A DNA stretch of 64,000 nt from Salinivirgaceae bacterium (lineage in GTDB: Bacteria > Bacteroidota > Bacteroidia > Bacteroidales > SZUA-534): assembly GCA_024405635.1 (NCBI GenBank), contig JAKSOL010000001.1, positions 182,082-246,081 of the forward strand, read 5' to 3'. Made by a program: the position numbers and the translations under genes. This document shows, in pieces, positions 9,000 through 59,713 of this stretch. The notes beneath the pieces were generated by a model. The model ran no database searches and had not been told where the DNA came from. It saw only the letters and a list, made by a program, of their open reading frames with translations. Each line of letters begins with the position of its first letter. Position 1 is the stretch's first letter.

Positions 9000-11900
9000 A
9001 TGAAGAGACTATCATTTTTAGCAATCGCATGCTTTTTTGCAGTTTCATCTGCATTTGCAGCGTGGGACGGGTCAACTCAAACTGCATGGACAGTCGGTTC
9101 AGGTACAGAGGAAGATCCATATCTGATTGAATCAGAAGAAAACCTAGCATCACTTGCAGCACAAGTAAATGCAGGACAAAGCTTCAGTGGCAAATACTTT
9201 AAACAAACAGCAGACCTTGATTTGGGATGCGTTTTTGACGAAGCCGGAATAGTGGATACAGAAGCAAGTGAAAATTTTAGTTGGACTCCAATTGGAAACA
9301 AATCTGCATGTTTCTCTGGTATTTATGATGGCAATGGCTTTGTAATAAGCAACTTGTATTATAACAATATTGAGCAAGAGTATTGCGGATTGTTTGGAGG
9401 CATTAATAATGCTAAACTGAAGAATATAACATTGGTATCTGGTTTTGTGTTTGGATATCAATATGCAGGTGGTATTTGTGGTTATGCTAAAGGTTCGTCA
9501 CTTGTAGATTGTTGCGCAAACAATGCAACAGTTTACGGAAAAATGGAACGTAATGGTGGTGTTGTTGGATATATTGAAGGTACAACTCAAGTAAACAATT
9601 GCATTAACTATGGTTTTGTATCAGCTTTTAACTTTTCAGGCGGTGTTGTTGGCTTCTGCAACAAAGCAACAACAACCGTAGCAAACTGTGTTAATGTTGG
9701 CCAAGTGTTTAGCATGCGATGCACAGCTGGTAGCTTATATGGATATAACAAAGATTTTGGAGGCTCAGCAAGTAACAACTACTACGACAAACAAGTAAAT
9801 CATTCAGAAGGTTGGACTTCGGTAACAAACATTATTGAGAAAAATGTTGATGTTGTTGGAAAAGTCGAGGGCAAATCAACAGCAGAAATGCTTGGCGATG
9901 GTTTGAAAGACGCTCTTGGCGACACCTATTGGGAATATTCTGATGGTCTTTATCCTCGTTTAAAATTGAGCAAAGACAACGATGCTATTGTTTTGGCAGC
10001 AACTCCAGTTGTACTAGAACAAGGCGAAGATGTTGATAACGTTAAAACTAATTTTTCAGTCAACACAAGTAACGATGTTGTTTGGGCTAACACAACTGAA
10101 AATATAGTTTCAGTATCAGGCAATAATGTTACAATTAATGGTAATGGTCCTGTTCAATTGATAGCAAAGAAGGGCAACTACACAAAAACATTTGCATTAC
10201 GTACAAATGCCGAAGAAACATATCCAACACTTAGTGTTGATAATATTAAAGATATGAAGGATTTAATCTTTGCAATGGCATACAGCACAAGTTATAAAGG
10301 TTATGCCAATTACAATGGTTTCAAGGGCGTTAATTTTGTTCTTAATGACGATCTCTCATTTATGGGTTCTTATGATGAGGAGACAGATACTTGGAGTGGC
10401 TCTATATTGGGTTATATGGGCGTTCACAACTCATTTAAAGGTAATTTTGACGGACAAAATCACAATATAGAGAATGTATATGTTGACATGCCAGCAGCAA
10501 TCAATGGAGGTTTGTTTGGTTGTGTATCGTATGGTACAATATCGAACCTTAATATTACTAGCGGATATGTTACAACCGGCAAACAACATGCAGGAGGTTT
10601 GGCAGGTGCTTCATTCCTTGAGAATTTCATCAACTGTTCAGTTAATTGTACTGTAACTGCAGGCTCTGCTCAATATGCAGCAGGTATTGTTAGTTACGAT
10701 AAAGGTTTTTCAACTTTTACTAATTGTAAAAACTATGGTAATGTTACTTCTTCGCAATATAGTGGTGGATTTGTTGCAAAAAGCGATTTAGCAACAACTG
10801 TTGAAGGTTGTGAAAACTGGGGCGATATTTACGTTGGTGCAAGTGGTAAAGCTGGAGGCTTTTGTGGAACTAGCAACATTTCAATGACAATTAGCAACTC
10901 TCGCAACTATGGCGCAATAGAAGGTTCATCTCTTGTAGGAGGCTTTATTGGTCAAAGTTTAGCAAATGGTGCCATTATTTCAAACAGCGAAAACCATGGC
11001 GCTATTACCGGAACATCAAGTATTGTGGCAGGCTTTATTGGTCAATCGACAAAAGGTCACATTACTAATTGTATAAACAATGCAAAAGTGACTGGTACGA
11101 CTTCCATAGGTGGCATTTGTGGTGAGTCAACAACTGATACTATTCAATTTTGTATTAACAACGATACCATTATGTCATCTTCAAGTGTAGTTGGCGGTAT
11201 TGCAGGTGTAATTAAAACACAATCTTTGATTAATGGCTGCCTTAATAGTAGCTATGTTAAAGGAGCAAGCAACATTGGTGGTATTTGTGGTCAAACTACC
11301 GAATCAGTAGTTAAAAACTGTTTTAACTCTGGATTGGTTAACGCAAATACTAACATAGGCGGAGGTATTGTAGGTTCAAATGGTACACAATCGGAATGTG
11401 AATCTTCAATTAACATTGGACTAGCAATATCAGGCGGGGCAAACAAAGGTGCCATAGTTGGTAGCAATAGCGGTTCAGTTAACTACTGCTACTCTGACAA
11501 GCAAATAAGCACAAATACCAAAATATGTGAAGGAACTGCTGCTACCAATTCAGAGCTTGCATTTACAAAAGACATCATCTCCGATAATTTGAAAGATGTG
11601 CTAGGTGAAGATAATTGGTCATACGCGAATAGACTATATCCTTGTCCTAAAGGACTTGAAAACAATGAAATTGCACAAGTTGCTACAGCATCAATCTGCT
11701 TGTTTGTTGACGAGAATGATGAAAATCTATACGACGAATTGGCTAATGTGAGCAACAAGTTCTCTATTGGATTTGCTAATGGTGTGAAATGGAAAAGTTC
11801 ATCAAACATAATTGGTATTGTAAATTATGATGCTTACGTTTCGCAAAAAGACAAAGAAAACACCGTTACACTTACAGCCACCAAAGGAACCATTTCAAAA

Positions 11901-13307
11901 AGCCTTACACTGACCATTCCTGCTTCAGTAGGTTTGTTAAGTCCTAATTTGAATTGGGACGGAATCGCAGACTTTGTTTATGGTACTGCCATTGACGCAA
12001 GTATGCTAAATGCTACTGTTGACGAAGGTGTTGATGGAGAATTTGTGTATTCTGTCGAAGAAAATGATGTTCTACCTGCTGGTTCACAAGAAGTTACCGT
12101 TACTTTTGCTCCAACCACTCCAGGATATGCTCGTGAAAACAAAACAATTACAGTAAATGTAGCTAAGGCACAACCTGTAATCACTTGGAATAAACCTTCT
12201 GACATTATCTATGGAACACGCATTAGTTTAGAGCAACAAAACGCAGTTTGTAATGTCGATGGTGAATTTATCTACACCAACACTGGTGCAGTATTGGATG
12301 CAGGAACCCACAAATTGTATGTAACATTCAATCCTTCTAGCAACAACTACACTTCTGTAAAAGACTCGGTAGAATTGACCATTAAGAAAGCTACACCTAC
12401 TATTGTGTGGGCTAATCCGTCGGATATAACTTACGGAGAAGCTATCTCGTCGCAATTAAATGCCATTTCAACAACAGAAGGTGAGATTACATACTCTGTT
12501 AATGTTGGTGATGTGCTTTCAGCTGGCGACAACACAATCACAGCTACACTTACACCAACTTCAGGCAACTACGAAACAACAAGCGCAACAGTAGTTCTAC
12601 ATGTGCGCAAGGCAGCCTCGGCAATCACTTGGGCACCTGAAAAAACAACATTTACTTATGGCGAAAGCATAGAGTCGTTGTTTAATGCCTCTGCCGATGC
12701 TGAAGGCTCAATAGTTTACTCGGTTGATAAAACTGCCACTCCAAACGCTGGAAGTCTTGAGGTTACTGCCACATTTACTCCTACATCGGGCAATTACGAA
12801 TCGGCAACCAAGGGCGTAAATGTTAATATTGAAAAAGCTAAGTTATCGGTATCTGTAGCAGACGTAAAAATTAAACAAGGTGAGAATTTGCCTAGCTTTA
12901 ATGTTGAATACAATGGATTTGTGAACAACGACAACGCAGCAAGTCTAAAATCGGAACCAACAGCAACTTGTTCAACCGACGGAAAAACTGCTGGTACATT
13001 TGATATTGTAGTAGCAGGTGGCGAATCTTCAAACTATGACTTTGTTTACCAAAATGGCAAACTAACAGTTGAGAAAACAGATGCAATTGCTGAGACTGAA
13101 TCAACTATCAACATCTATCCAAATCCAACAACCGATGTTATAGTAATTGAGAGCGATGCAAACGAAGCTCAAATATTTAATCTCAATGGCGATTTGGTTA
13201 AGGTTTGCCCATTGTCGGGCACAACTCATGTTGATGTAAACGACCTTGCTGAAGGAACTTACATTGTAGTTGTAGGCAATAAAGCAACTCGAATTGTAAA
13301 GAAATAG
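9000..13307 (+). CDS. T9SS type A cargo, adhesin-like: GLUG/beta-helix regions, four Ig-like repeats, MBG domain, CTD
   Basis: Signal peptide. GSGTEEDPYLI and FxGxFDG starts with many GGIxG GLUG-like motifs. Four xPxIxW..D..YG repeats. AKLSVSV...YNGFVNND MBG-like domain. C-terminal IYPNP...GTYIVVVG..RIVKK. Confidence 0.85.
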   Translation: MKRLSFLAIACFFAVSSAFAAWDGSTQTAWTVGSGTEEDPYLIESEENLASLAAQVNAGQSFSGKYFKQTADLDLGCVFDEAGIVDTEASENFSWTPIGNKSACFSGIYDGNGFVISNLYYNNIEQEYCGLFGGINNAKLKNITLVSGFVFGYQYAGGICGYAKGSSLVDCCANNATVYGKMERNGGVVGYIEGTTQVNNCINYGFVSAFNFSGGVVGFCNKATTTVANCVNVGQVFSMRCTAGSLYGYNKDFGGSASNNYYDKQVNHSEGWTSVTNIIEKNVDVVGKVEGKSTAEMLGDGLKDALGDTYWEYSDGLYPRLKLSKDNDAIVLAATPVVLEQGEDVDNVKTNFSVNTSNDVVWANTTENIVSVSGNNVTINGNGPVQLIAKKGNYTKTFALRTNAEETYPTLSVDNIKDMKDLIFAMAYSTSYKGYANYNGFKGVNFVLNDDLSFMGSYDEETDTWSGSILGYMGVHNSFKGNFDGQNHNIENVYVDMPAAINGGLFGCVSYGTISNLNITSGYVTTGKQHAGGLAGASFLENFINCSVNCTVTAGSAQYAAGIVSYDKGFSTFTNCKNYGNVTSSQYSGGFVAKSDLATTVEGCENWGDIYVGASGKAGGFCGTSNISMTISNSRNYGAIEGSSLVGGFIGQSLANGAIISNSENHGAITGTSSIVAGFIGQSTKGHITNCINNAKVTGTTSIGGICGESTTDTIQFCINNDTIMSSSSVVGGIAGVIKTQSLINGCLNSSYVKGASNIGGICGQTTESVVKNCFNSGLVNANTNIGGGIVGSNGTQSECESSINIGLAISGGANKGAIVGSNSGSVNYCYSDKQISTNTKICEGTAATNSELAFTKDIISDNLKDVLGEDNWSYANRLYPCPKGLENNEIAQVATASICLFVDENDENLYDELANVSNKFSIGFANGVKWKSSSNIIGIVNYDAYVSQKDKENTVTLTATKGTISKSLTLTIPASVGLLSPNLNWDGIADFVYGTAIDASMLNATVDEGVDGEFVYSVEENDVLPAGSQEVTVTFAPTTPGYARENKTITVNVAKAQPVITWNKPSDIIYGTRISLEQQNAVCNVDGEFIYTNTGAVLDAGTHKLYVTFNPSSNNYTSVKDSVELTIKKATPTIVWANPSDITYGEAISSQLNAISTTEGEITYSVNVGDVLSAGDNTITATLTPTSGNYETTSATVVLHVRKAASAITWAPEKTTFTYGESIESLFNASADAEGSIVYSVDKTATPNAGSLEVTATFTPTSGNYESATKGVNVNIEKAKLSVSVADVKIKQGENLPSFNVEYNGFVNNDNAASLKSEPTATCSTDGKTAGTFDIVVAGGESSNYDFVYQNGKLTVEKTDAIAETESTINIYPNPTTDVIVIESDANEAQIFNLNGDLVKVCPLSGTTHVDVNDLAEGTYIVVVGNKATRIVKK

Positions 13308-35640: not shown

Positions 35641-36915
35641 ATGCAAACTATTGATAATTACAATTTTGCTGGTAAAAAAGCCATCGTTCGCGTTGACTTT
35701 AACGTACCAACTAAAGAAGGCGTTGTAACCGACGACACTCGTATTAAAGGAGCCCTTCCAACTCTTAAAAAAATTCTTGCTGACGGTGGTGCCGTTATTA
35801 TGATGAGCCACATGGGTAAACCAAAAGGCAAGGTTGATATGAAAAAATCGCTTCAACAAATTGTTCCAGCTGTTTCTGCTGCTCTTGGTGTTGAGGTAAA
35901 ATTTGCTGCTGACTGCGCAAACGCTGATGCTGAGGCTTCTGCTTTGAAAATGGGTGAGGCTCTTTTGCTTGAAAACCTTCGTTTCTATGGCGAAGAAGAG
36001 GGCAAACCTGTTGGTATTGAAAAAGAAGATCCAGCTTACGAGGCTGCTAAAAAAGAAATGAAAGGCAAACAAAAAGACTTTGCTAAAAAATTGGCTTCAT
36101 ACGCTGATTGCTATGTTATGGATGCTTTCGGAACAGCTCACCGCAAACATGCTTCAACCGCTGTTATTGCTGACTATTTTGATGCAAACAACAAAATGCT
36201 AGGCTACTTGATGGAGAAAGAGGTTAAAGCTGTTGACGCAGTTTTGAGCGACATTAAACGTCCTTTCACCGCTATTATGGGTGGTTCAAAAGTATCTACC
36301 AAAATTGGTATTATCGAAAACTTGCTTGGCAAAGTTGACAACCTTATCCTTTGCGGTGGTATGACTTATACTTTTGCTAAAGCTTTGGGTGGCAAAGTTG
36401 GTAACTCAATTTGCGAAGATGACAAACTTCAAGTTGCTCTTGACGTGATTGCAAAAGCTAAAGAAAACGGTGTTAACCTAGTTCTTGGTACTGATGCTGT
36501 TATTGCAAAAGACGCTATCGATTGGGATACAATGAGCTTTAAAGCTGGTGCTTCTGTAAAAGTTTCAGCTGCTGGCGAAATTGAAGAAGGTTGGGAAGGT
36601 CTTGATGCTGGTCCAGAGAGCCAAAAAGCTTTTGCTGCAGCTATTAAAGATGCTAAAACAATTCTTTGGAACGGTCCTGCTGGTGTGTTCGAGATTGACG
36701 AATTTACCGCTGGTTCACGTGCTATTGGTGATGCAGTTGCTGAAGCTACCGCTAAAGGTGCTTTCTCGCTTATCGGTGGTGGCGACTCTGTAGCTTGCGT
36801 TAACAAATTCGGTTTGGCTGACAAAGTATCTTACATCTCAACTGGTGGTGGTGCTTTGCTTGAGGCTATCGAGGGTAAAGTATTGCCAGGTATCGCTGCT
36901 ATTAAAGGCGAATAA
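35641..36915 (+). CDS. pgk: Phosphoglycerate kinase
   Basis: [42 protein letters not shown] and STGGGA; upstream TACCTTTG at 35593-35600. Confidence 0.98.
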
Positions 36916-53441: not shown

Positions 53442-54506
53442 TTACAAACTCAGTTGCTCCAAAATTTTGCAATAAACTTCAATACCGTTCTCTATTTCCT
53501 CTTCCATTATATACTCGTTTGCGGTGTGCGAACGAGCTGAATCTCCGGGACCTATTTTTATAGTTGGGAAAGCTCCGCTTATTACGGCTTGGTCCGATGT
53601 GGTAGGAGAGAAGAATGTTTCAAGACCTAGGCTTAATCCAGCTTTTACCAAAGGGTGCTCCATGCTTATTGCCGATGCGTTTTTGTTTAGCGAACGAGGT
53701 GTGGCGGTCGATTCAATGTGCTGCTGAATATGCTCCCAAGTTTCTTTGTTGCTATATTGCTCGGTGGTGCGCACATCAACCACAAAGTGGCATTCGGCAG
53801 GAATTACGTTGTGTTGCGTGCCTGCATTAATTTGTGTAACGCTCATTTTTACATTGCCAAGCAGGGGGCTTTCTTTGGGGAATTTGTACGAGTGAAACCA
53901 CTCAATGTCGCGCGAGGCAATGCTTATTGCGTTTATTCCCTCGTTGCGAGCGGCGTGCCCAGTTTGTCCGTGGGCAACACAGTCGAGAACCAACAGACCT
54001 TTTTCAGCCACAGCCATACGCATTCCGGTAGGTTCGCCCACAATGCCAGCAACAACGGTTTGTTTCAGCATTGGCAGAATTTTGTACATGCCATTGGGGC
54101 CCGATATTTCCTCTTCGGCCGAAGCCACAAACATGCGGTTGTAGCCAAGATTTGAATTGTCGGTTGCCATAAAAGCCATAAGTAGGCTAACAAGACTTGC
54201 GCCCGCATCGTTGCTACCAAGACCTGTTAACTTGCCGTTAGCATTTATTGGTTCAAATGGGTCCGATTCCCAACCCTGCGCAGGTTTAACGGTATCGAGG
54301 TGAGAGTTAAGCATCAGAGTGGCGCGCCCTTCGGCAAAATCTTTGCAACGCGCAATTATGTTGTTGCCAATCTGTTCTGGTTCGTATCCGTTGTCTTTCA
54401 AAAAGTTAACAACAATGTCTGATACGTTCTTTTCGTTGCCACTAAACGATTCGGTGGCTATCATTTGCTTTAAAAGATTTATGGCAGATTGTGTTAGTGT
54501 GTTCAT
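53442..54506 (-). CDS. argE: M20 family acetylornithine deacetylase-like hydrolase
   Basis: NSHLDTV, GSNDAG, AEEE, VGEPT, GHAA and SHTANE; close to argH. Confidence 0.78.
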   Translation of the reverse strand: MNTLTQSAINLLKQMIATESFSGNEKNVSDIVVNFLKDNGYEPEQIGNNIIARCKDFAEGRATLMLNSHLDTVKPAQGWESDPFEPINANGKLTGLGSNDAGASLVSLLMAFMATDNSNLGYNRMFVASAEEEISGPNGMYKILPMLKQTVVAGIVGEPTGMRMAVAEKGLLVLDCVAHGQTGHAARNEGINAISIASRDIEWFHSYKFPKESPLLGNVKMSVTQINAGTQHNVIPAECHFVVDVRTTEQYSNKETWEHIQQHIESTATPRSLNKNASAISMEHPLVKAGLSLGLETFFSPTTSDQAVISGAFPTIKIGPGDSARSHTANEYIMEEEIENGIEVYCKILEQLSL

Positions 54507-54514
54507 TTATGTGA

Positions 54515-54547
54515 GTGTTGTTTTTGTTGCAAATATATCTAAAATGA
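54515..54547. repeat. Left copy of a 33-bp direct repeat (contains the argE -7 promoter element on the minus strand)
   Basis: GTGTTGTTTTTGTTGCAAATATATCTAAAATGA, identical to 59681-59713. Confidence 0.92.
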
Positions 54548-54915
54548 AGAGCTGTTGGCGCCATGCTTAAAACCGATGTGCAAATGGCTTGAATGTGGAT
54601 TGTTGTAAGTTTTTCAGTATATCAAAAATCAATTGTTAGTGCCGATGCCAATATTTGTGCTCCGTAGTATGCATTATTTGCCAAATAGAAATATCATACA
54701 ACAAAAACAGCAAGAATGGATATGCGTAATATCCAAAATGACAGAAAGTGTTTGGCTTGTTAAACTGGAGCCATTATTGAGAATTATTGCAAATAGTTTA
54801 ATTTTGAAGAACTAAAGACGATTCAAAAGAAAAATAATTCACAGAAATAGAATTTTAAACTAACATATTAATTAACAAGCGTTTGCTATAAAAACAAGAT
54901 TATTAAATAACAACA

Positions 54916-55818
54916 ATGAAAGCAAAACCATTCGTCAAGTGGGTTGGTGGAAAAAGCCAGCTCATCGAACAACTCGGAGCATTGCTTCCTGCTGACTTTG
55001 CACAATGGGAGAATGTCACTTACATTGAACCTTTTGTAGGTGGAGGGGCTATGCTCTTCTACATGTTACAGTCTCATTCCAATATCACATCAGCAGTAAT
55101 AAATGATATTAATCCAGATTTAACAACATGTTATAAAGTTGTCAAGAAAAATCCGGCAGCCTTGATATCTTCTTTAGGTGAAATTCAAAAAGAATATTAT
55201 GCACTAAAAAATGAAGAATCTCGTAAAGAATTCTTTTTACAAATGCGTGACAGATTTAATACAAAAAAACTTGATGAAATAGAGAACACTACAATTTTCT
55301 TTTTTCTGAATCGTACGTGTTTCAATGGATTATATAGGGTAAACAAATCGGGTTTGTTTAATGTTCCTTTTGGCAAATATAAAAGACCGACTATTTGTGA
55401 CCCTGCTACAATTTATGCAGATAGTGAATTGTTGCAAAAGGTTACGATTATGACAGGAGATTTTGAAAAGACAATCGAACAAATAGGTGTAACAAATTTT
55501 TTCTATTTCGATCCTCCATATCGACCGTTGAGTGAAACTTCAAGCTTTACAAGCTATTCAAAAGATGATTTTAACGATGATGCTCAAATCAGATTGATGC
55601 AATTTTGTAACAATTTGAATAATCTTAATATTTCATTTATGCTTAGCAATTCGGACGGATTTGGAGCAAATGGCAAAGACCGATTTTTAGATGATTTATA
55701 CGAGGATTTTCAAATAGAACGAGTTATTGCTTCTCGAAATATAAATTCAATTGCCTCTAAGCGTGGAAAATTGAGCGAGATTTTAGTTCGTAACTACCAA
55801 GAAACAGCAGTAATATGA
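54916..55818 (+). CDS. Dam/DpnM-type DNA adenine methyltransferase (likely GATC)
   Basis: KWVGGK, EPFVGGG, NRTCFNGLYRVN..G.FNVPFG, DPPY and LSNS. Confidence 0.93.
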   Translation: MKAKPFVKWVGGKSQLIEQLGALLPADFAQWENVTYIEPFVGGGAMLFYMLQSHSNITSAVINDINPDLTTCYKVVKKNPAALISSLGEIQKEYYALKNEESRKEFFLQMRDRFNTKKLDEIENTTIFFFLNRTCFNGLYRVNKSGLFNVPFGKYKRPTICDPATIYADSELLQKVTIMTGDFEKTIEQIGVTNFFYFDPPYRPLSETSSFTSYSKDDFNDDAQIRLMQFCNNLNNLNISFMLSNSDGFGANGKDRFLDDLYEDFQIERVIASRNINSIASKRGKLSEILVRNYQETAVI

Positions 55819-56666
55819 AAGCACATACAGATGAACAATTTAACACATTTCTATCGCAATTGAAGGAAACTAACCAGACTTTAGATTTCTTTTGTGATTT
55901 TGGCAAGATTTCAGAAAATGTAAATAACATAAAATTAAGTCTTTGTATGCTGAATAGTCTTATTGGCGTACAAGATATTCGTTCTGCTGTTGAAACAATA
56001 TGGAACAGAGATAAGTCCGCATTTAATGTTATGGACATTCTAATTGCTGTTCGTAGCGAAGGACAAAAGAAGGTTATTGATTCAATTGGAAATTGTGTTG
56101 TTCTTGATTCTTTATTCACATCTGTTGAAGGTGTTATGGAGTTCCTTAACAATACAGGATTAACTGAAGTTTTCCAAAGTAGAAAAATAACTAATTTGGT
56201 TGATTATGTTTTTGGAATCGAAACAGGATTGGATACAAATGCCCGCAAAAATAGGAGTGGACATATTATGGAAAATGCTGTTGCAAAAATATTAAAGGCA
56301 AATGGCATACATTTCCGTCAAGAAGTTTATTCAAGCGAATGGCAAAGTATTACCGACGTTTTGGGCGATGATGAAAAGCGATTTGATTTTGTTATAGAGA
56401 CACCAACAAAAACATATTTAATTGAAGTTAATTTCTATAGTGGTGGCGGTTCTAAACTAAATGAAGTTGCACGTTCATACTCTGATATTGCACCAAAAAT
56501 CAATTCTGTTGAAGGTTTTGAATTTGTTTGGATAACTGACGGTATTGGTTGGAAATCTGCAAAAAATAAATTGCAAGAGGCTTATAATATTATACCAAGT
56601 GTGTATAATTTGACAAATATTGAAGAATTATTAAATATCATTAATAAATATGGCGACATTAAATGA
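55815..56666 (+). CDS. DpnII/MboI-family type II restriction endonuclease
   Basis: TNLVDYVFGIETGLDTNARKNRSG, KRFDFV, IEVNFYSGGGSKLNEVARSY and WITDGIGW. Confidence 0.92.
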   Translation: MKAHTDEQFNTFLSQLKETNQTLDFFCDFGKISENVNNIKLSLCMLNSLIGVQDIRSAVETIWNRDKSAFNVMDILIAVRSEGQKKVIDSIGNCVVLDSLFTSVEGVMEFLNNTGLTEVFQSRKITNLVDYVFGIETGLDTNARKNRSGHIMENAVAKILKANGIHFRQEVYSSEWQSITDVLGDDEKRFDFVIETPTKTYLIEVNFYSGGGSKLNEVARSYSDIAPKINSVEGFEFVWITDGIGWKSAKNKLQEAYNIIPSVYNLTNIEELLNIINKYGDIK

Positions 56667-58344
56667 CTTTAAAATTTTGAATCAAAAGTGCTTAAAGCAT
56701 TTTGAAATTGCAGTAGCTACATTAAAATTGTCTGATGATATTCTGCAAAAGATTGATGAACAGAAAAAAAAGAACTTTGGTTTTTATTATTGTGCATTGC
56801 AGTACATATTGAATGAAACTAATTATGAGGTGTTGACCGAGATTATTTGTGATACTGATTTTAATGTCAATTTATTTAATATTAAAGATCAAGATGCAGG
56901 AGTTGATGCTGTTTATTTTGATGAAGAAGAGCATCAAATATCTATTTTTAATTTTAAGTTTCGCCCTAATTTTAATAAAGATAAAGCTCAAAGTATCAAT
57001 GAATCAATACAAACTGTAAAATTTTTAAATGTAATTAAAACAGAAAATTATGATTCATTGTCAGGTAAACCAAAAGAATTTGCAAAAAAAATAATAGATT
57101 ACAACAATAGTGATGAAGTATGGAAAACAACATATTATATTGTTAGTAATGAAAATATTACTATTGATACAAATAATTCAACGATAAGAGATTTATCGCA
57201 AGTTCAAGGTATTGAAATAAAGGCAATTGGGTTAGATGAGATAGTTGATTTTATGTCTATACATCCAGCAAATGTAAATGCTGAACTATTATTACCAAGA
57301 GAAAATGTAATGACGTACGCTGTAAGTAATTTGGTTACAGATAAATCATATAATCTTTCCCTTAGTTTAACTGATATCATCCGAATAACGTGTAATGACG
57401 AACAATATAGAAAGAATACTAATGTAGAAGATGATAGTGAATTAACAAAATTGGAGTTGGAGAATTCTGTACTATATGAAAATGTTCGTGGATACATATT
57501 ACGTTCTGAGTATAATGCGAATATTTTTAAATCATTAGAAAATGAACCAGAAAAATTTTTCTTCTTTAATAATGGTATCACTATCGTTGCCGAAGATATT
57601 AGTGCACAAGAGGTTAATACTAACAGAAAATTAAAATTATCAATAAGAAACTTTCAAGTTCTAAATGGTGGACAAACACTTCGAACAATACATAAGTTTA
57701 ACAAAGAGGATTCGAGAAATATAGAAAAATTGTCAAAAGCAAGTATAATGGTTCGAATTATGAAAGTTACAGATGATGATTTAAAAAGTCGTATAAGTGA
57801 ATTTACTAATAGTCAAAATTCTATTTCTCAAAAGGATTTAAAATCAATGAGAAAAGAACAAGTACAACTACAGCAATATTTGGAAGATTATGGTATTTTA
57901 TATATTAGGAAAAGTGGTGATATAGGAGAAAAATCTCAGAAAAAATATGATTATCATATTGATATTGAGTTACTAGGTCAAATATTATATGCAATTTGTG
58001 GATTTCCAGGACAGGTATCGAACAAGAAGAAAGATATTTTTTCTAAAAATTATAATAGTATTTTCTTAACAGATGATTTGTTATCAGAAAAAACAGTAAC
58101 ATATATAAAAGCATATTATTCAATAAAAGAATTGTATAAAGAAAAATATAAAAAATCATATATGGATTTGAAAGTGTTCTTTATACTGTATTTGTCAGAA
58201 AAACTAAGAAAAAATGATTATCAGAATATAATTGAAGAATTTGAAAAATATCTTGAAAACACACGTAGTGAAGAAAAGGATAGTAGAAGATTGATAAAAG
58301 TAACCTTTCTGTCTGAATTAAAAAGGCAATTTAATATAAATTGA
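56650..58344 (+). CDS. AIPR family (abortive infection phage resistance) protein
   Basis: N-terminal DAGVDAVYFD..FNFKF; core LYENVRGYI, FFFFNNGITIV, QVLNGGQT and TNSQN. Confidence 0.88.
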   Translation: MATLNDFKILNQKCLKHFEIAVATLKLSDDILQKIDEQKKKNFGFYYCALQYILNETNYEVLTEIICDTDFNVNLFNIKDQDAGVDAVYFDEEEHQISIFNFKFRPNFNKDKAQSINESIQTVKFLNVIKTENYDSLSGKPKEFAKKIIDYNNSDEVWKTTYYIVSNENITIDTNNSTIRDLSQVQGIEIKAIGLDEIVDFMSIHPANVNAELLLPRENVMTYAVSNLVTDKSYNLSLSLTDIIRITCNDEQYRKNTNVEDDSELTKLELENSVLYENVRGYILRSEYNANIFKSLENEPEKFFFFNNGITIVAEDISAQEVNTNRKLKLSIRNFQVLNGGQTLRTIHKFNKEDSRNIEKLSKASIMVRIMKVTDDDLKSRISEFTNSQNSISQKDLKSMRKEQVQLQQYLEDYGILYIRKSGDIGEKSQKKYDYHIDIELLGQILYAICGFPGQVSNKKKDIFSKNYNSIFLTDDLLSEKTVTYIKAYYSIKELYKEKYKKSYMDLKVFFILYLSEKLRKNDYQNIIEEFEKYLENTRSEEKDSRRLIKVTFLSELKRQFNIN

Positions 58345-59516
58345 TGTTGTATAAAGATTTCATCCTTCACCACGGTGATTGTCGCCAATTAGTAAAAAAC
58401 ATTCCCGACAATAGCGTGGATATGATTTTTGCCGACCCACCCTATTTTTTGAGCAATGGTGGAATCAGTTGCAAGAATGGCAGAATGGTTTGCGTGGATA
58501 AAGGCGATTGGGACAAAGGCGGTACACCCGAATATATGTACCAATTCAACAAAGAATGGCTTGAAGTATGCCACTCAAAACTAAAAGACGACGGAACTAT
58601 TTGGATTTCGGGAACTTATCACAATATTTTTGTCGTTCAACGTTGTCTCAAGGAATTGGGCTACAAGATTTTGAATTATATTACTTGGCAAAAATCTGAC
58701 CCAGCACCAAACATTAGTTGCCGATATTTTACATTTTCTACAGAATTGATTATTTGGGCACGGAAATCGGAAAAGAAACCACACAAATTCAACTACGATG
58801 TGATGAAACGCATCAATGGCGACAAACAAATGACTGATGTTTGGCGAATGTCGGCAGTGGGATTGTGGGAAAAAACGTGTGGCAAACACCCTACGCAAAA
58901 GCCTTTGAAGTTATTGTATCGTATCATTTTGGCATCTACAAATAAAGGCGATACAATTCTTGACCCGTTTGCAGGAAGTTGTACTACGGGCATTGCTTCC
59001 AATCTTTTGGGTCGCAATTTTATTGGAATCGACCAAGAGCAAGAATATTTGGATTTAGGCATTCGTCGTAGGCAGGAAATAGAAAATCCTGAAATTGCAG
59101 AGAAAATGTTGCGAAAAATGTCCGATTCGTCAACAGAATCAATGGTTTTGGTAAATCATGCTTCGGAAGATAAACGAAAGTTGATGATTGAAAAAGGGAT
59201 TTGCTATATGCGAGCAAATGAGTCAAAAGGCTCGTTGCAAATAACAGCAGGATTTGAACGGATGAAATATGTCTTGTTACATACAGGTGGCAGTGACTGT
59301 CAAATTTTCAAATTGAAAAAAGCAGGGACGTTTCAAATATGGACATGCGAGGCATTGGAAAAAATCGGTTTTAGTCCCGAACATGCTACACATTACATTG
59401 TTGTTCACTTTGATAACACAAAAATGGTAGATTTAGATAAGTCTATTAATATCCGTCAGCGCTTGAATACATACAGAGCGGTAATTCGTCCTTTGAGCGA
59501 TTTTGTACTTATGTGA
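58344..59516 (+). CDS. DpnA-type (beta-class N6/N4) DNA methyltransferase with a C-terminal extension of about 125 aa
   Basis: IFADPPYFLSNGG, GTIWISGTYHNI, HPTQKP and DPFAGS; TGATG overlap with the AIPR stop codon. Confidence 0.9.
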   Translation: MLYKDFILHHGDCRQLVKNIPDNSVDMIFADPPYFLSNGGISCKNGRMVCVDKGDWDKGGTPEYMYQFNKEWLEVCHSKLKDDGTIWISGTYHNIFVVQRCLKELGYKILNYITWQKSDPAPNISCRYFTFSTELIIWARKSEKKPHKFNYDVMKRINGDKQMTDVWRMSAVGLWEKTCGKHPTQKPLKLLYRIILASTNKGDTILDPFAGSCTTGIASNLLGRNFIGIDQEQEYLDLGIRRRQEIENPEIAEKMLRKMSDSSTESMVLVNHASEDKRKLMIEKGICYMRANESKGSLQITAGFERMKYVLLHTGGSDCQIFKLKKAGTFQIWTCEALEKIGFSPEHATHYIVVHFDNTKMVDLDKSINIRQRLNTYRAVIRPLSDFVLM

Positions 59517-59564: not shown

Positions 59565-59606
59565 CTACTGAAAATTTTTTCTATTTCTGCAAAAAGTTTT
59601 CAGTAG
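59565..59606. repeat. 16-bp imperfect inverted repeat (terminator or protein-binding site)
   Basis: CTACTGAAAATTTTTT-n10-AAAAAGTTTTCAGTAG. Confidence 0.7.
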
Positions 59607-59680: not shown

Positions 59681-59713
59681 GTGTTGTTTTTGTTGCAAAT
59701 ATATCTAAAATGA
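59681..59713. repeat. Right copy of the 33-bp direct repeat
   Basis: Identical to 54515-54547; weaker similarity continues to about 59741. Confidence 0.92.

What the first reader, a model, noticed from the sequence alone, without database searches (positions are those of the whole stretch)
54916..59516. Composite defence operon: an AIPR gene embedded and translationally coupled inside a DpnII/MboI-type M-R-M system
Seen: four overlapping genes. The Dam-like MTase overlaps the DpnII-family REase by 4 nt. AIPR overlaps the REase by 17 nt, and the DpnA-type MTase starts in a TGATG overlap with the AIPR stop. The AIPR gene is visibly more AT-rich than both neighbours. Its N-terminus carries a restriction-endonuclease-like D-x-G-V-D...(N)FK motif ahead of the NVRG/NNGIT/NGGQT/TNSQN core. 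Known: DpnII/MboI systems comprise two MTases and one REase, and AIPR proteins often lie near R-M genes with a poorly defined mechanism. Inference: AIPR was inserted into the operon and is co-expressed as a back-up layer, for example abortive infection triggered when phage resist or inhibit GATC restriction. This would be a layered system rather than a plain R-M locus.
Basis: partly seen in the sequence, partly recalled or inferred. Interest (0 to 1): 0.75.

Follow-up and report, generated by a model that had tools for sequence, protein, structure and literature searches.

The report
GATC restriction operon carrying an AbiU-type gene
A small acquired island encodes a DpnII/MboI-type restriction-modification system with an AbiU/AIPR phage-defence gene wedged between its nuclease and its second methylase, a real and recurring arrangement that belongs to an already described kind of pairing.

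Summary
Four intact, co-oriented genes lie at 54916-59516: a DpnM-like Dam methylase, a DpnII-family nuclease, an AIPR/AbiU protein and a beta-class N6 methylase. They overlap by 4, 17 and 1 nt. AIPR is the most AT-rich gene (GC 0.26; 32 other ORFs average 0.41).

The cassette is a 5.2-kb low-GC islet between housekeeping genes, flanked by perfect 33-bp direct repeats.

The arrangement recurs. In this AIPR subfamily, 6 of 32 other loci carry Dam-type R-M genes. Gene order varies (M-R-A-M, M-R-M-A, M-M-R-A, A-M-R-M) and three nuclease families are involved. The overlapping AIPR-stop/M2-start junction is present in 3 loci. Six more loci sit in Dnd islands, and about 20 stand alone.

AIPR genes inside R-M operons have been in print since 2008, and AbiU's FokI-like domain since 2026. 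This is therefore a new member of a known kind.

The "back-up abortive infection" trigger is untested. The low GC is a clade-wide trait, so it does not prove recent insertion.

Boldest reading left open: this subfamily uses G6mATC as its self mark.

The parts
54515..54547 (.). Left copy of a perfect 33-bp direct repeat that bounds the islet. On the - strand it carries TATATTTG and lies just upstream of the M20 peptidase gene 53442-54506(-).
   Evidence: family D4, 100% identity, spacing 5166
54799..54806 (+). TAATTTTG. This is the only + strand match to the Bacteroidetes -7 promoter consensus TAnnTTTG (consensus recalled) between the left repeat and the end of AIPR. It is the candidate operon promoter, 110 nt before the M1 ATG.
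   Evidence: The motif is not enriched in the window as a whole (68 found, 87 expected), so this is weak evidence.
54916..55818 (+). M1: alpha-class Dam/DpnM-like N6-adenine DNA methyltransferase, 300 aa, with the DPPY motif present.
   Evidence: the nearest solved relative is DpnM 2DPM, E 1.3e-56
55815..56666 (+). R: DpnII-family Type II restriction endonuclease, 283 aa.
   Evidence: 1173 representatives at E<=0.001; the family's invariant residues are present
56650..58344 (+). AIPR/AbiU1-family protein, 564 aa, intact.
   Evidence: AlphaFold2 mean pLDDT 86.4
56650..57294 (+). AIPR N-terminal domain (aa 1-215) with the conserved D68, D82-x-G-x-D86 and F-N-F-K103 residues. It probably has a restriction-endonuclease-like (FokI cleavage-domain-like) fold.
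   Evidence: pLDDT 90.6, pTM 0.86. In one search the top three Foldseek hits are FokI chains, E 0.057-0.11, prob 0.66-0.90, but none reaches E<=0.001. No Pfam match even at E<=10.
57472..58263 (+). AIPR core (Pfam PF10592, aa 275-538) with the NVRG, NNGIT, NGGQT and TNSQN motifs.
58344..59516 (+). M2: beta-class N6/N4 DNA methyltransferase, 390 aa, with the DPPY motif present.
   Evidence: Nearest solved relatives are CcrM 6PBD (E 8e-60) and a chain named DpnA, 5HEK (E 4e-30). It is 52-59% identical to the M2 genes of other DpnII-type cassettes.
59106..59513 (+). M2 C-terminal domain (aa 255-390) of no known family. It is absent from the 291-293-aa M2 of L001, L002 and L006.
   Evidence: 961 proteins at E<=0.001, mostly ~390-400-aa methylases; no Pfam match; only unnamed clusters
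59565..59606 (+). A 16-bp AU-rich hairpin 49 nt after the M2 stop. It is the candidate operon terminator.
   Evidence: I23, 94% complementary; z = -2.77; 3 of 200 shuffles fold as well
59681..59713 (.). Right copy of the 33-bp direct repeat. Weaker similarity extends about 40 nt to its right.

Best explanation
A 5.2-kb horizontally acquired islet lies between a peptidase gene and an outer-membrane-protein gene and is bounded by 33-bp direct repeats. It carries one four-gene operon.

Three of the genes form a DpnII/MboI-type Type II R-M system. A DpnM-like Dam methylase and a beta-class methylase mark host DNA, presumably at GATC. A DpnII-family nuclease cuts unmarked DNA.

The fourth gene sits exactly at the R|M2 junction. 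It is a self-sufficient AbiU1/AIPR-family defence effector, made of an N-terminal restriction-endonuclease-like domain joined to the AIPR core.

All four genes are made from one transcript. The stop/start overlaps tie production of M2 to translation of AIPR. The two defences act as independent layers that are inherited, transferred and expressed together.

Shown: gene identities, intactness, overlaps, the compositional strata and the recurrence of the pairing.

Inferred: GATC specificity, the single transcript, and AIPR acting on nucleic acid as AbiU does. AbiU is reported to delay phage transcription and to give a 10- to 100-fold drop in plating.
For: - Gene families and motifs.
- Overlaps.
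- No + strand TAnnTTTG between M1 and M2's coding region, and a hairpin after M2.
- Islet: GC strata and z about -5 for AIPR, direct repeats, housekeeping flanks.
- GATC is the most under-represented of all 256 tetranucleotides in the window: 45 seen, 137 expected, ratio 0.33.
- Recurrence: the same gene sets appear in L001, L002, L006, L016, L081 and L082. The four DpnII-linked Bacteroidales proteins fall on one side of a branch with SH-aLRT 100.
- AIPR stop overlaps M2 start in the window, L001 and L002.
- Autonomy of AIPR: about 20 of 30 genomic relatives lack any R-M or Dnd neighbour, and 9 of 5426 E. coli genomes carry it on small integrase-bearing islets without a methylase.
- AbiUi alone confers resistance, and its model resembles FokI (PMC13064643, passages read). 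My own models give FokI as the top hit.
Against: - No expression, methylation or phage data exist for this locus.
- The fold assignment of the N-terminal domain is not statistically significant. There are 0 matches at E<=0.001, the best TM is 0.40, and unrelated folds such as Ras GTPases appear at similar E-values.
- The second acidic residue of a canonical PD-(D/E)xK site is Asn (N101), so the domain may be a variant or inactive.
- M2's nearest solved relative is CcrM (GANTC), not a GATC enzyme, so its specificity is inferred from context only.
- The recurrent and specific link with Dam-type cassettes (5 of 32 close loci against 0 of 50 distant AIPR loci, one-sided Fisher p 0.007; the loci are not independent) suggests more than mere co-travel.
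Confidence: 0.5

Rival explanations
1. Methylation-keyed AIPR. This AIPR subfamily reads G6mATC as the self mark. It is either a second, unconventional restriction-type nuclease held off by GATC methylation, or an effector silenced by methylated host DNA. The cassette's methylases would then protect the host from both R and AIPR, and the gene could live alone only in hosts that already methylate GATC.
For: - In every R-M-linked locus whose flanks are visible the shared partner is a Dam-family methylase, while the nuclease family differs. It is DpnII in the window, L001, L006 and L081. It is DUF6996/6997 (PADLOC REase_II) in L082, with a truncated copy in L001. It is PDDEXK_11 in L016.
- Gene order varies but the link persists across three phyla.
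- Unlinked copies: 15 of 17 gammaproteobacterial loci with a named order are Enterobacterales, Vibrionales, Alteromonadales or Aeromonadales. There are also 9 E. coli genomes and 4 cyanobacteria. I recall these lineages as having housekeeping GATC methylation; no call supports that.
- Arcobacter butzleri is reported to lack Dam (PMC2147049, passage read), which fits L016 carrying its own.
Against: - The hosts' Dam status was recalled, not tested here.
- L009 (Chitinophagales) has an intact, unlinked copy in a lineage of unknown methylation. L027 (Chromatiales), L015 (Thiotrichales, split gene) and two unnamed MAGs (L007, L014) fall outside the pattern or cannot be judged.
- Host range of horizontal transfer alone could produce the taxonomic pattern, because the loci are phylogenetically non-independent.
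- Only 7 linked loci are known.
Confidence: 0.2
2. Guard model, which is the first reader's reading and is analogous to PrrC with EcoprrI (recalled). AIPR is kept latent by the working R-M proteins and is released as an abortive-infection toxin when a phage inhibits or evades GATC restriction.
For: - Tight operon embedding and translational linkage.
- Recurrence with R-M cassettes.
Against: - Most relatives have no R-M partner to guard.
- The partner nuclease belongs to three unrelated families and the neighbour next to AIPR varies (R, M2, a nuclease remnant), which argues against a specific protein-protein latch.
Confidence: 0.12
3. Regulator model. AIPR is a DndB-like or C-protein-like controller that tunes methylase or nuclease expression and is not a defence effector.
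For: - The literature places the DndB N-terminal region in the AbiU1/AIPR/COG1479 family (PMC3632139, PMC3506569, passages read).
- No controller-protein ORF is present upstream of M1.
Against: - In the Dnd-linked locus checked (L019), a canonical DndB (PADLOC E 1.5e-175) is present in addition to AIPR. L020, L021, L024 and L029 hold 359-362-aa ORFs in the same position that are 62-95% identical to it.
- A profile-profile comparison of AIPR with those DndB proteins found nothing (probability 0.2%).
- Stand-alone copies have nothing to regulate.
- AbiUi alone gives phage resistance (PMC13064643).
Confidence: 0.05

Closest known systems
MboI and DpnII GATC restriction-modification systems (gene orders M-R-M and M-M-R; recalled)
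   Same: The parts list matches: a DpnM/Dam-like alpha methylase (best solved relative is DpnM itself), a DpnII-family nuclease (PF04556) and a beta-class second methylase. The order M-R-...-M is that of MboI. L006 has the uninterrupted M-R-M form and L081 the M-M-R form.
   Different: A 564-aa AIPR gene occupies the R|M2 junction. M2 carries an extra ~135-aa C-terminal domain of no known family. M2 is closer to CcrM than to the solved chain named DpnA. GATC specificity is not demonstrated.
AbiU (AbiUi/AbiU1) of Lactococcus lactis
   Same: It matches the PADLOC AbiU model over aa 85-549 (E 2.5e-32) and Pfam AIPR. A FokI-like nuclease resemblance of the AlphaFold model is reported for AbiUi (PMC13064643) and is seen here as the top Foldseek hit.
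   Different: AbiU is plasmid-borne with an AbiUii (HEPN) neighbour. No such gene is present here, and the partners are R-M genes instead. No phenotype is known for this protein.
R-M operons with embedded AIPR genes (Iyer et al. 2008; Makarova et al. 2012, 2013; the Prevotella intermedia Pin25611FIII operon)
   Same: This is the same kind of composite. [quoted passage not shown]
   Different: Those reports name other partners: Type III systems, MORC-type systems, and a GCWGC m5C orphan system in P. intermedia (PMC5608340). A subfamily tied to Dam/DpnII-type cassettes was not found in my searches.
PrrC anticodon nuclease with the EcoprrI Type I R-M system (recalled)
   Different: The protein families are unrelated. 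A latch to the R-M proteins is not shown here, and most relatives of this AIPR lack any R-M neighbour.
MzaE of the MZA anti-phage system
   Same: It shares the AIPR core (NCBIfam NF041935 aligns to aa 273-409).
   Different: The score is 58 bits against a cut-off of 1050. None of the four operon genes or nine flanking ORFs scanned matched another Mza component.

Membership tests
DpnII/MboI-type Type II R-M system | Dam/DpnM-like alpha-class N6-adenine methylase | tested here: met
   PF02086 E 7e-63; TIGR00571 288 bits against a cut-off of 115; DpnM 2DPM E 1.3e-56; the DPPY motif is in the sequence.
DpnII/MboI-type Type II R-M system | DpnII-family restriction endonuclease | tested here: met
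   PF04556 338 bits against a cut-off of 23, covering 273 of 278 profile positions; PADLOC REase_II E 1e-88.
DpnII/MboI-type Type II R-M system | Second, beta-class (DpnA/MboIC-like) methylase | tested here: met
   PF01555 E 5e-60. It is 52-59% identical to the second methylase of four other DpnII-type cassettes. It has an extra C-terminal domain.
DpnII/MboI-type Type II R-M system | Recognition and methylation of GATC | not testable with these tools
   Indirect evidence only. GATC is the most depleted tetranucleotide in the window (ratio 0.33). M2's nearest solved relative is the GANTC enzyme CcrM.
AIPR / AbiU1 family | AIPR core domain above the curated threshold | tested here: met
   PF10592 160.5 bits against a cut-off of 25; PADLOC AbiU E 2.5e-32 over aa 85-549.
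AIPR / AbiU1 family | Nuclease-like (FokI-like) domain fused to the core, as reported for AbiUi | tested here: inconclusive
   FokI chains are the top Foldseek hits for the whole model and for the domain model, but the best E is 0.057, TM is <=0.40 and nothing reaches E<=0.001. There is no Pfam match.
AIPR / AbiU1 family | ParB-superfamily fold of the core (literature assignment) | tested here: inconclusive
   Not recovered by any of my calls: hhalign against 5 DndB sequences gave probability 0.2%; a PDB profile search gave 0 hits at E<=1; no ParB-like chain is in the rows shown. The assignment rests on PMC3632139.
AIPR / AbiU1 family | Confers phage resistance / abortive infection | not testable with these tools
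   This needs phage assays.
MZA system (MzaE) | Equivalog-level match and MzaABCD neighbours | tested here: not met
   NF041935 58 bits against a cut-off of 1050. The neighbours are R-M genes.
DndB | Match to DndB models / place in a dndBCDE operon | tested here: not met
   No DndB model is among the PADLOC hits of the window protein. The Dnd-linked locus checked, L019, has a separate canonical DndB, and four others have ORFs 62-95% identical to it.

The most novel reading that the evidence does not exclude
This ~560-aa AIPR subfamily is a GATC-methylation-keyed effector. It uses G6mATC as the self mark, which would explain two patterns. Where it is linked to an R-M system it travels with a Dam-type methylase, whichever nuclease family is present. 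It is found alone mainly in lineages that methylate GATC as housekeeping (the Dam/SeqA/MutH orders of Gammaproteobacteria, E. coli, cyanobacteria). If so, the 'accessory' gene in this operon is a second, unconventional restriction activity sharing the operon's methylases. AIPR would also gain its first mechanistic handle.
Probability: 0.2. Interest if true: 0.7.

Novelty: new member of a known kind. Interest (0 to 1): 0.4.

Why it matters
AIPR/AbiU1 is one of the oldest 'known but not understood' defence families. Its association with R-M systems has been noted since 2008 without any mechanism. This locus and its relatives give a clean comparative handle. One AIPR subfamily recurs with Dam-type cassettes in several gene orders and with several nuclease families. 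Its sister lineages stand alone or sit in phosphorothioation islands.

That narrows the question to a testable one: does the protein care about the methylation mark, about the restriction proteins, or about neither? The answer would bear on how layered immunity is wired in gut Bacteroidales. As a single locus, however, it is an ordinary example of a described phenomenon.

Tried and rejected
- Complex prediction of AIPR with the DpnII-family nuclease (own alignments A2 and A4). The verdict was 'no answer' (score 0.00, mark 0.32). It counts neither for nor against binding.
- Profile search of AIPR against PDB sequences: 0 hits at E<=1.
- hhalign of AIPR against DndB from the Dnd-linked loci: probability 0.2%.
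- Pfam scan of the AIPR N-terminal 216 aa and the M2 C-terminal 136 aa at E<=10: nothing.
- Atlas searches: only AIPR clusters for the core, and only unnamed clusters for the M2 tail.
- Sigma-70-type promoter scan: 30 sites against 29.3 expected, uninformative, and the wrong promoter type for Bacteroidota. The terminator scan found one weak internal site only.
- No tRNA gene lies near the repeats.
- No controller-protein ORF lies upstream of M1.
- Megablast of the islet against plasmids: no match.
- Phage collection: only 3 distant hits (27.5% identity) in Salmonella phages.
- Rejected idea: AIPR replaces DndB in the Dnd-linked loci. A canonical DndB is present in L019, with 62-95% identical ORFs in four others.
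- Rejected idea: the low GC of AIPR marks a recent insertion. The same offset is seen in L001, L002 and L006.
Full report
**Observation.**
- M1, 54916-55818, 300 aa.
- R, 55815-56666, 283 aa.
- AIPR, 56650-58344, 564 aa.
- M2, 58344-59516, 390 aa. An in-frame TTG one codon upstream is also possible.

The junctions were read directly from the sequence. They are ATGA (4-nt overlap), a 17-nt overlap, and TGATG (1-nt overlap).

- M1 is PF02086, and matches the NCBIfam 'dam' subfamily at 288 bits against a cut-off of 115.
- R is PF04556 DpnII at 338 bits.
- The third protein is PF10592 AIPR at 160 bits against a cut-off of 25. It matches the PADLOC AbiU model over aa 85-549 (E 2.5e-32).
- M2 is PF01555.

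The nearest solved relative of M1 is DpnM itself (2DPM, E 1.3e-56). For M2 the nearest is CcrM (6PBD, E 8e-60), ahead of a chain named DpnA (5HEK, E 4e-30). R has no solved relative at E<=0.01. All four genes are intact and keep the residues that are invariant in their families.

**Composition and boundaries.** AIPR has GC 0.258 and GC3 0.172. R has GC 0.316, M1 0.338 and M2 0.388. The 32 other ORFs of at least 250 aa in the window average 0.413 (sd 0.029, minimum 0.36). M1, R and AIPR therefore all lie below the host range, AIPR by about five standard deviations, while M2 lies within it.

The low-GC stretch is bounded by a perfect 33-bp direct repeat at 54515-54547 and 59681-59713. Weaker similarity runs about 40 nt to the right of each copy.

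The flanks are housekeeping genes: an M20 peptidase on the left and an outer-membrane beta-barrel protein on the right. No tRNA gene is nearby. A 16-bp hairpin follows M2.

On the + strand, the recalled Bacteroidetes -7 consensus TAnnTTTG occurs once upstream of M1 (54799-54806) and not again until inside M2. The motif is not enriched in the window as a whole, so this is weak support for a single transcript.

GATC is the most under-represented of all 256 tetranucleotides in the window: 45 seen against 137 expected from a maximal-order Markov model, a ratio of 0.33. This fits a lineage long exposed to GATC restriction.

**Relatives and their contexts.** A word-indexed search found 1126 relatives at E<=0.001 among 8000 scored candidates. 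The best non-self hit is 58% identical, and almost all listed hits are about 560 aa and come from metagenomes.

One scan of the species-representative genome collection returned 129 confirmed loci, of which 80 were kept. Thirty of these (L001-L030) match well beyond the AIPR core; five of them (L015, L022, L025, L026, L028) have the gene split or cut. The other 50 match mostly the core only. Neighbours were identified by tblastn with the window's four proteins and by Pfam and PADLOC scans of 150 flanking ORFs.

Four of the 30 are tied to Dam-type R-M genes:
- L001 (Phocaeicola): M1, R, a truncated DUF6996/6997 nuclease, AIPR, M2.
- L002 (Bacteroidaceae): AIPR, M2. The contig starts at AIPR, so the upstream side is unseen.
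- L006 (Bacteroidales): M1, R, M2, AIPR, followed by Hachiman genes.
- L016 (Arcobacteraceae): AIPR, Dam, a PDDEXK_11 nuclease, a methylase.

Six are in phosphorothioation islands (L019, L020, L021, L024, L027, L029). In L019, L024 and L029 AIPR follows a 1650-1670-aa DUF87 protein (DndH by PADLOC in L019) and an Mrr-type nuclease. In L020 it follows the large protein directly, and the other two differ upstream or start at the contig edge. In all six it is convergent with dndEDC. A canonical DndB is also present in L019, and L020, L021, L024 and L029 hold ORFs 62-95% identical to it in the same position.

The remaining 20 show no R-M or Dnd gene in the flanks examined. Some lie beside integrases or other defence genes (L007, L011, L013, L023, L009). 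Two (L017, L028) have too little flank to judge.

The plasmid collection adds the only two hits covering at least 80% of the query:
- A Staphylococcus cohnii plasmid with Dam, a beta methylase, a DpnII-family nuclease and AIPR in that order (L081).
- A Lactiplantibacillus plasmid with Dam, a full-length DUF6996/6997/7226 nuclease (PADLOC REase_II), a small ORF and AIPR (L082).

In E. coli, 9 of 5426 complete genomes carry a relative. In the two I inspected it sits on small islets with recombinase or transposase genes and no methylase.

**What the comparison shows.**

First, the pairing is not unique to this window.

Second, the position is only partly conserved. The AIPR-stop/M2-start overlap is present in the window (TGATG), L001 (TAATG) and L002 (ATGA). 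In contrast, the gene before AIPR is R, a nuclease remnant, M2 or R again in different loci.

Third, on a quick maximum-likelihood tree of 35 proteins, the four DpnII-linked Bacteroidales proteins lie on one side of a branch with SH-aLRT 100, together with 11 metagenome proteins of unknown context. The five Dnd-linked proteins group with support 87. L006, L020 and L027 have long branches, and the tool flags their placement as unsure.

Fourth, the shared partner across linked loci is the Dam-family methylase, not a particular nuclease family. A Dam-like gene was found in 5 of 32 close loci and in 0 of 50 distant AIPR loci (one-sided Fisher p 0.007). The loci are not independent, and tblastn may miss remote D12 methylases.

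Fifth, AIPR has the lowest GC3 in every Bacteroidales locus (in L001 level with the neighbouring nuclease remnant, 0.196 against 0.197), although the proteins are only 42-54% identical. The AT-richness is therefore a trait of the clade and not a timestamp of insertion.

Sixth, between the window and L001, R is 79% identical and M1 is 69%, but AIPR is only 51% and M2 57%. The window's M2 also carries a C-terminal domain that L001, L002 and L006 lack. The cassette is therefore a mosaic.

**The AIPR protein.** AlphaFold2 with a 35-sequence alignment gives mean pLDDT 86.4. The first 215 residues modelled alone give pLDDT 90.6 and pTM 0.86, with an alpha/beta core in which D86 starts one strand and N101-F-K103 ends the next.

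Foldseek against the PDB ranks FokI chains first for both models. E is 0.14-0.26 for the whole chain and 0.057-0.11 for the domain, with probability up to 0.90 and TM up to 0.40. Other restriction-fold nucleases follow in the list: N.BspD6I, Mus81, Avs4, MspJI, HamA, Shedu, Card1 and EndoMS. No match reaches E<=0.001, and unrelated folds such as Ras GTPases appear at similar E-values.

This agrees with a 2026 review that superimposes an AbiUi model on FokI (PMC13064643, passages read).

The literature assigns the AIPR core to the ParB superfamily (PMC3632139, passage read). None of my calls recovered that assignment.

**Literature.** I read passages found by term search in the following papers:
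[quoted passage not shown] - PMC5608340: an AIPR gene in the GCWGC Pin25611FIII operon of Prevotella intermedia, not in its GATC system.
- PMC13064643: AbiUi alone protects, delays phage transcription, and gives a 10- to 100-fold drop in plating.
- PMC3710099, PMC9122126, PMC7174414 and PMC2147049.

Searches combining AIPR or AbiU with GATC, DpnII or MboI found no paper describing this pairing (read at listing level; for the general searches). Supplements were not opened.

**Mechanism.** The best-supported reading is two independent defence layers in one operon. The first is a GATC R-M system. The second is an autonomous AbiU-type effector whose nuclease-like N-terminal domain is controlled by the AIPR core. 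The two are co-transcribed, and M2 translation is tied to AIPR translation.

Two readings would make the link functional. In the first, the effector is keyed to the methylation mark. This fits the constant Dam partner and the taxonomy of unlinked copies: 15 of 17 gammaproteobacterial loci with a named order are Enterobacterales, Vibrionales, Alteromonadales or Aeromonadales. I recall these orders as methylating GATC; no call shows it. In the second, the effector guards the R-M proteins in a PrrC-like way.

A regulator role is unlikely, given the separate DndB in L019 and the stand-alone copies.

**Verdict.** The composite is a recurring one, and it belongs to a kind described since 2008. The specific Dam-cassette association of this subfamily is a modest new comparative point.

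Noticed in passing
window 54515-54547 and 59681-59713: A perfect 33-bp direct repeat brackets the whole R-M/AIPR islet. On the - strand each copy carries TATATTTG. The left copy is the promoter region of the M20 peptidase gene. The right copy faces into the 3' end of the operon and drives no obvious gene. This may be a target duplication or a recombination site, and no integrase is present.
   Followed up: partly
whole window: GATC is the most depleted of all 256 tetranucleotides (45 seen, 137 expected). CCGG (ratio 0.43), GGCC (0.53) and CTAG (0.55) are next, which hints at a history of several restriction specificities.
   Followed up: partly
window 59106-59513 (M2 aa 255-390): A conserved ~135-aa C-terminal domain with no Pfam family. 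It is shared by 961 proteins, mostly ~390-400-aa methylases, with the few named ones from Bacteroidales and Paludibacteraceae. It is absent from the shorter M2 genes of L001, L002 and L006.
   Followed up: partly
L001 5118-5894; L082 3379-4668: DUF6996/DUF6997 proteins match a PADLOC Type II restriction-enzyme model. The copy in a Lactiplantibacillus plasmid is full length (429 aa, with DUF7226) and sits between Dam and AIPR. The Phocaeicola copy is truncated (258 aa) and sits between the DpnII nuclease and AIPR, as if two R-M/AIPR cassettes had recombined.
   Followed up: partly
L019, L020, L021, L024, L027, L029: A sister clade of this AIPR subfamily sits inside phosphorothioation islands in Vibrio, Alteromonas, Xenorhabdus and Rheinheimera. 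In the three Vibrio loci it follows a DndH-like giant protein and an Mrr-type nuclease. In all six it is convergent with dndEDC, and a separate canonical DndB was confirmed in L019.
   Followed up: partly
L006 7850-11605: A Hachiman system (HamA, HamB) lies directly downstream of the M-R-M-AIPR cassette, so in that genome the cassette is part of a larger defence island.
   Followed up: no
one search list (P0246, P0259, P0278, P0315, P0326, P0337): DpnII-family domains occur at the C-terminus of 555-622-aa proteins. These may be methylase-nuclease fusions. They were not examined.
   Followed up: no
L030 10383-11186: A corticovirus-type P2 double-jelly-roll coat protein gene lies about 2.7 kb downstream of the stand-alone AIPR in Vibrio atlanticus, which suggests a prophage neighbourhood.
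   Followed up: no
window 9000-13307 and 35641-36915: Two other long ORFs have unusually low GC3 (0.27 and 0.29) compared with the window mean of 0.39. They may be further acquired genes.
   Followed up: no
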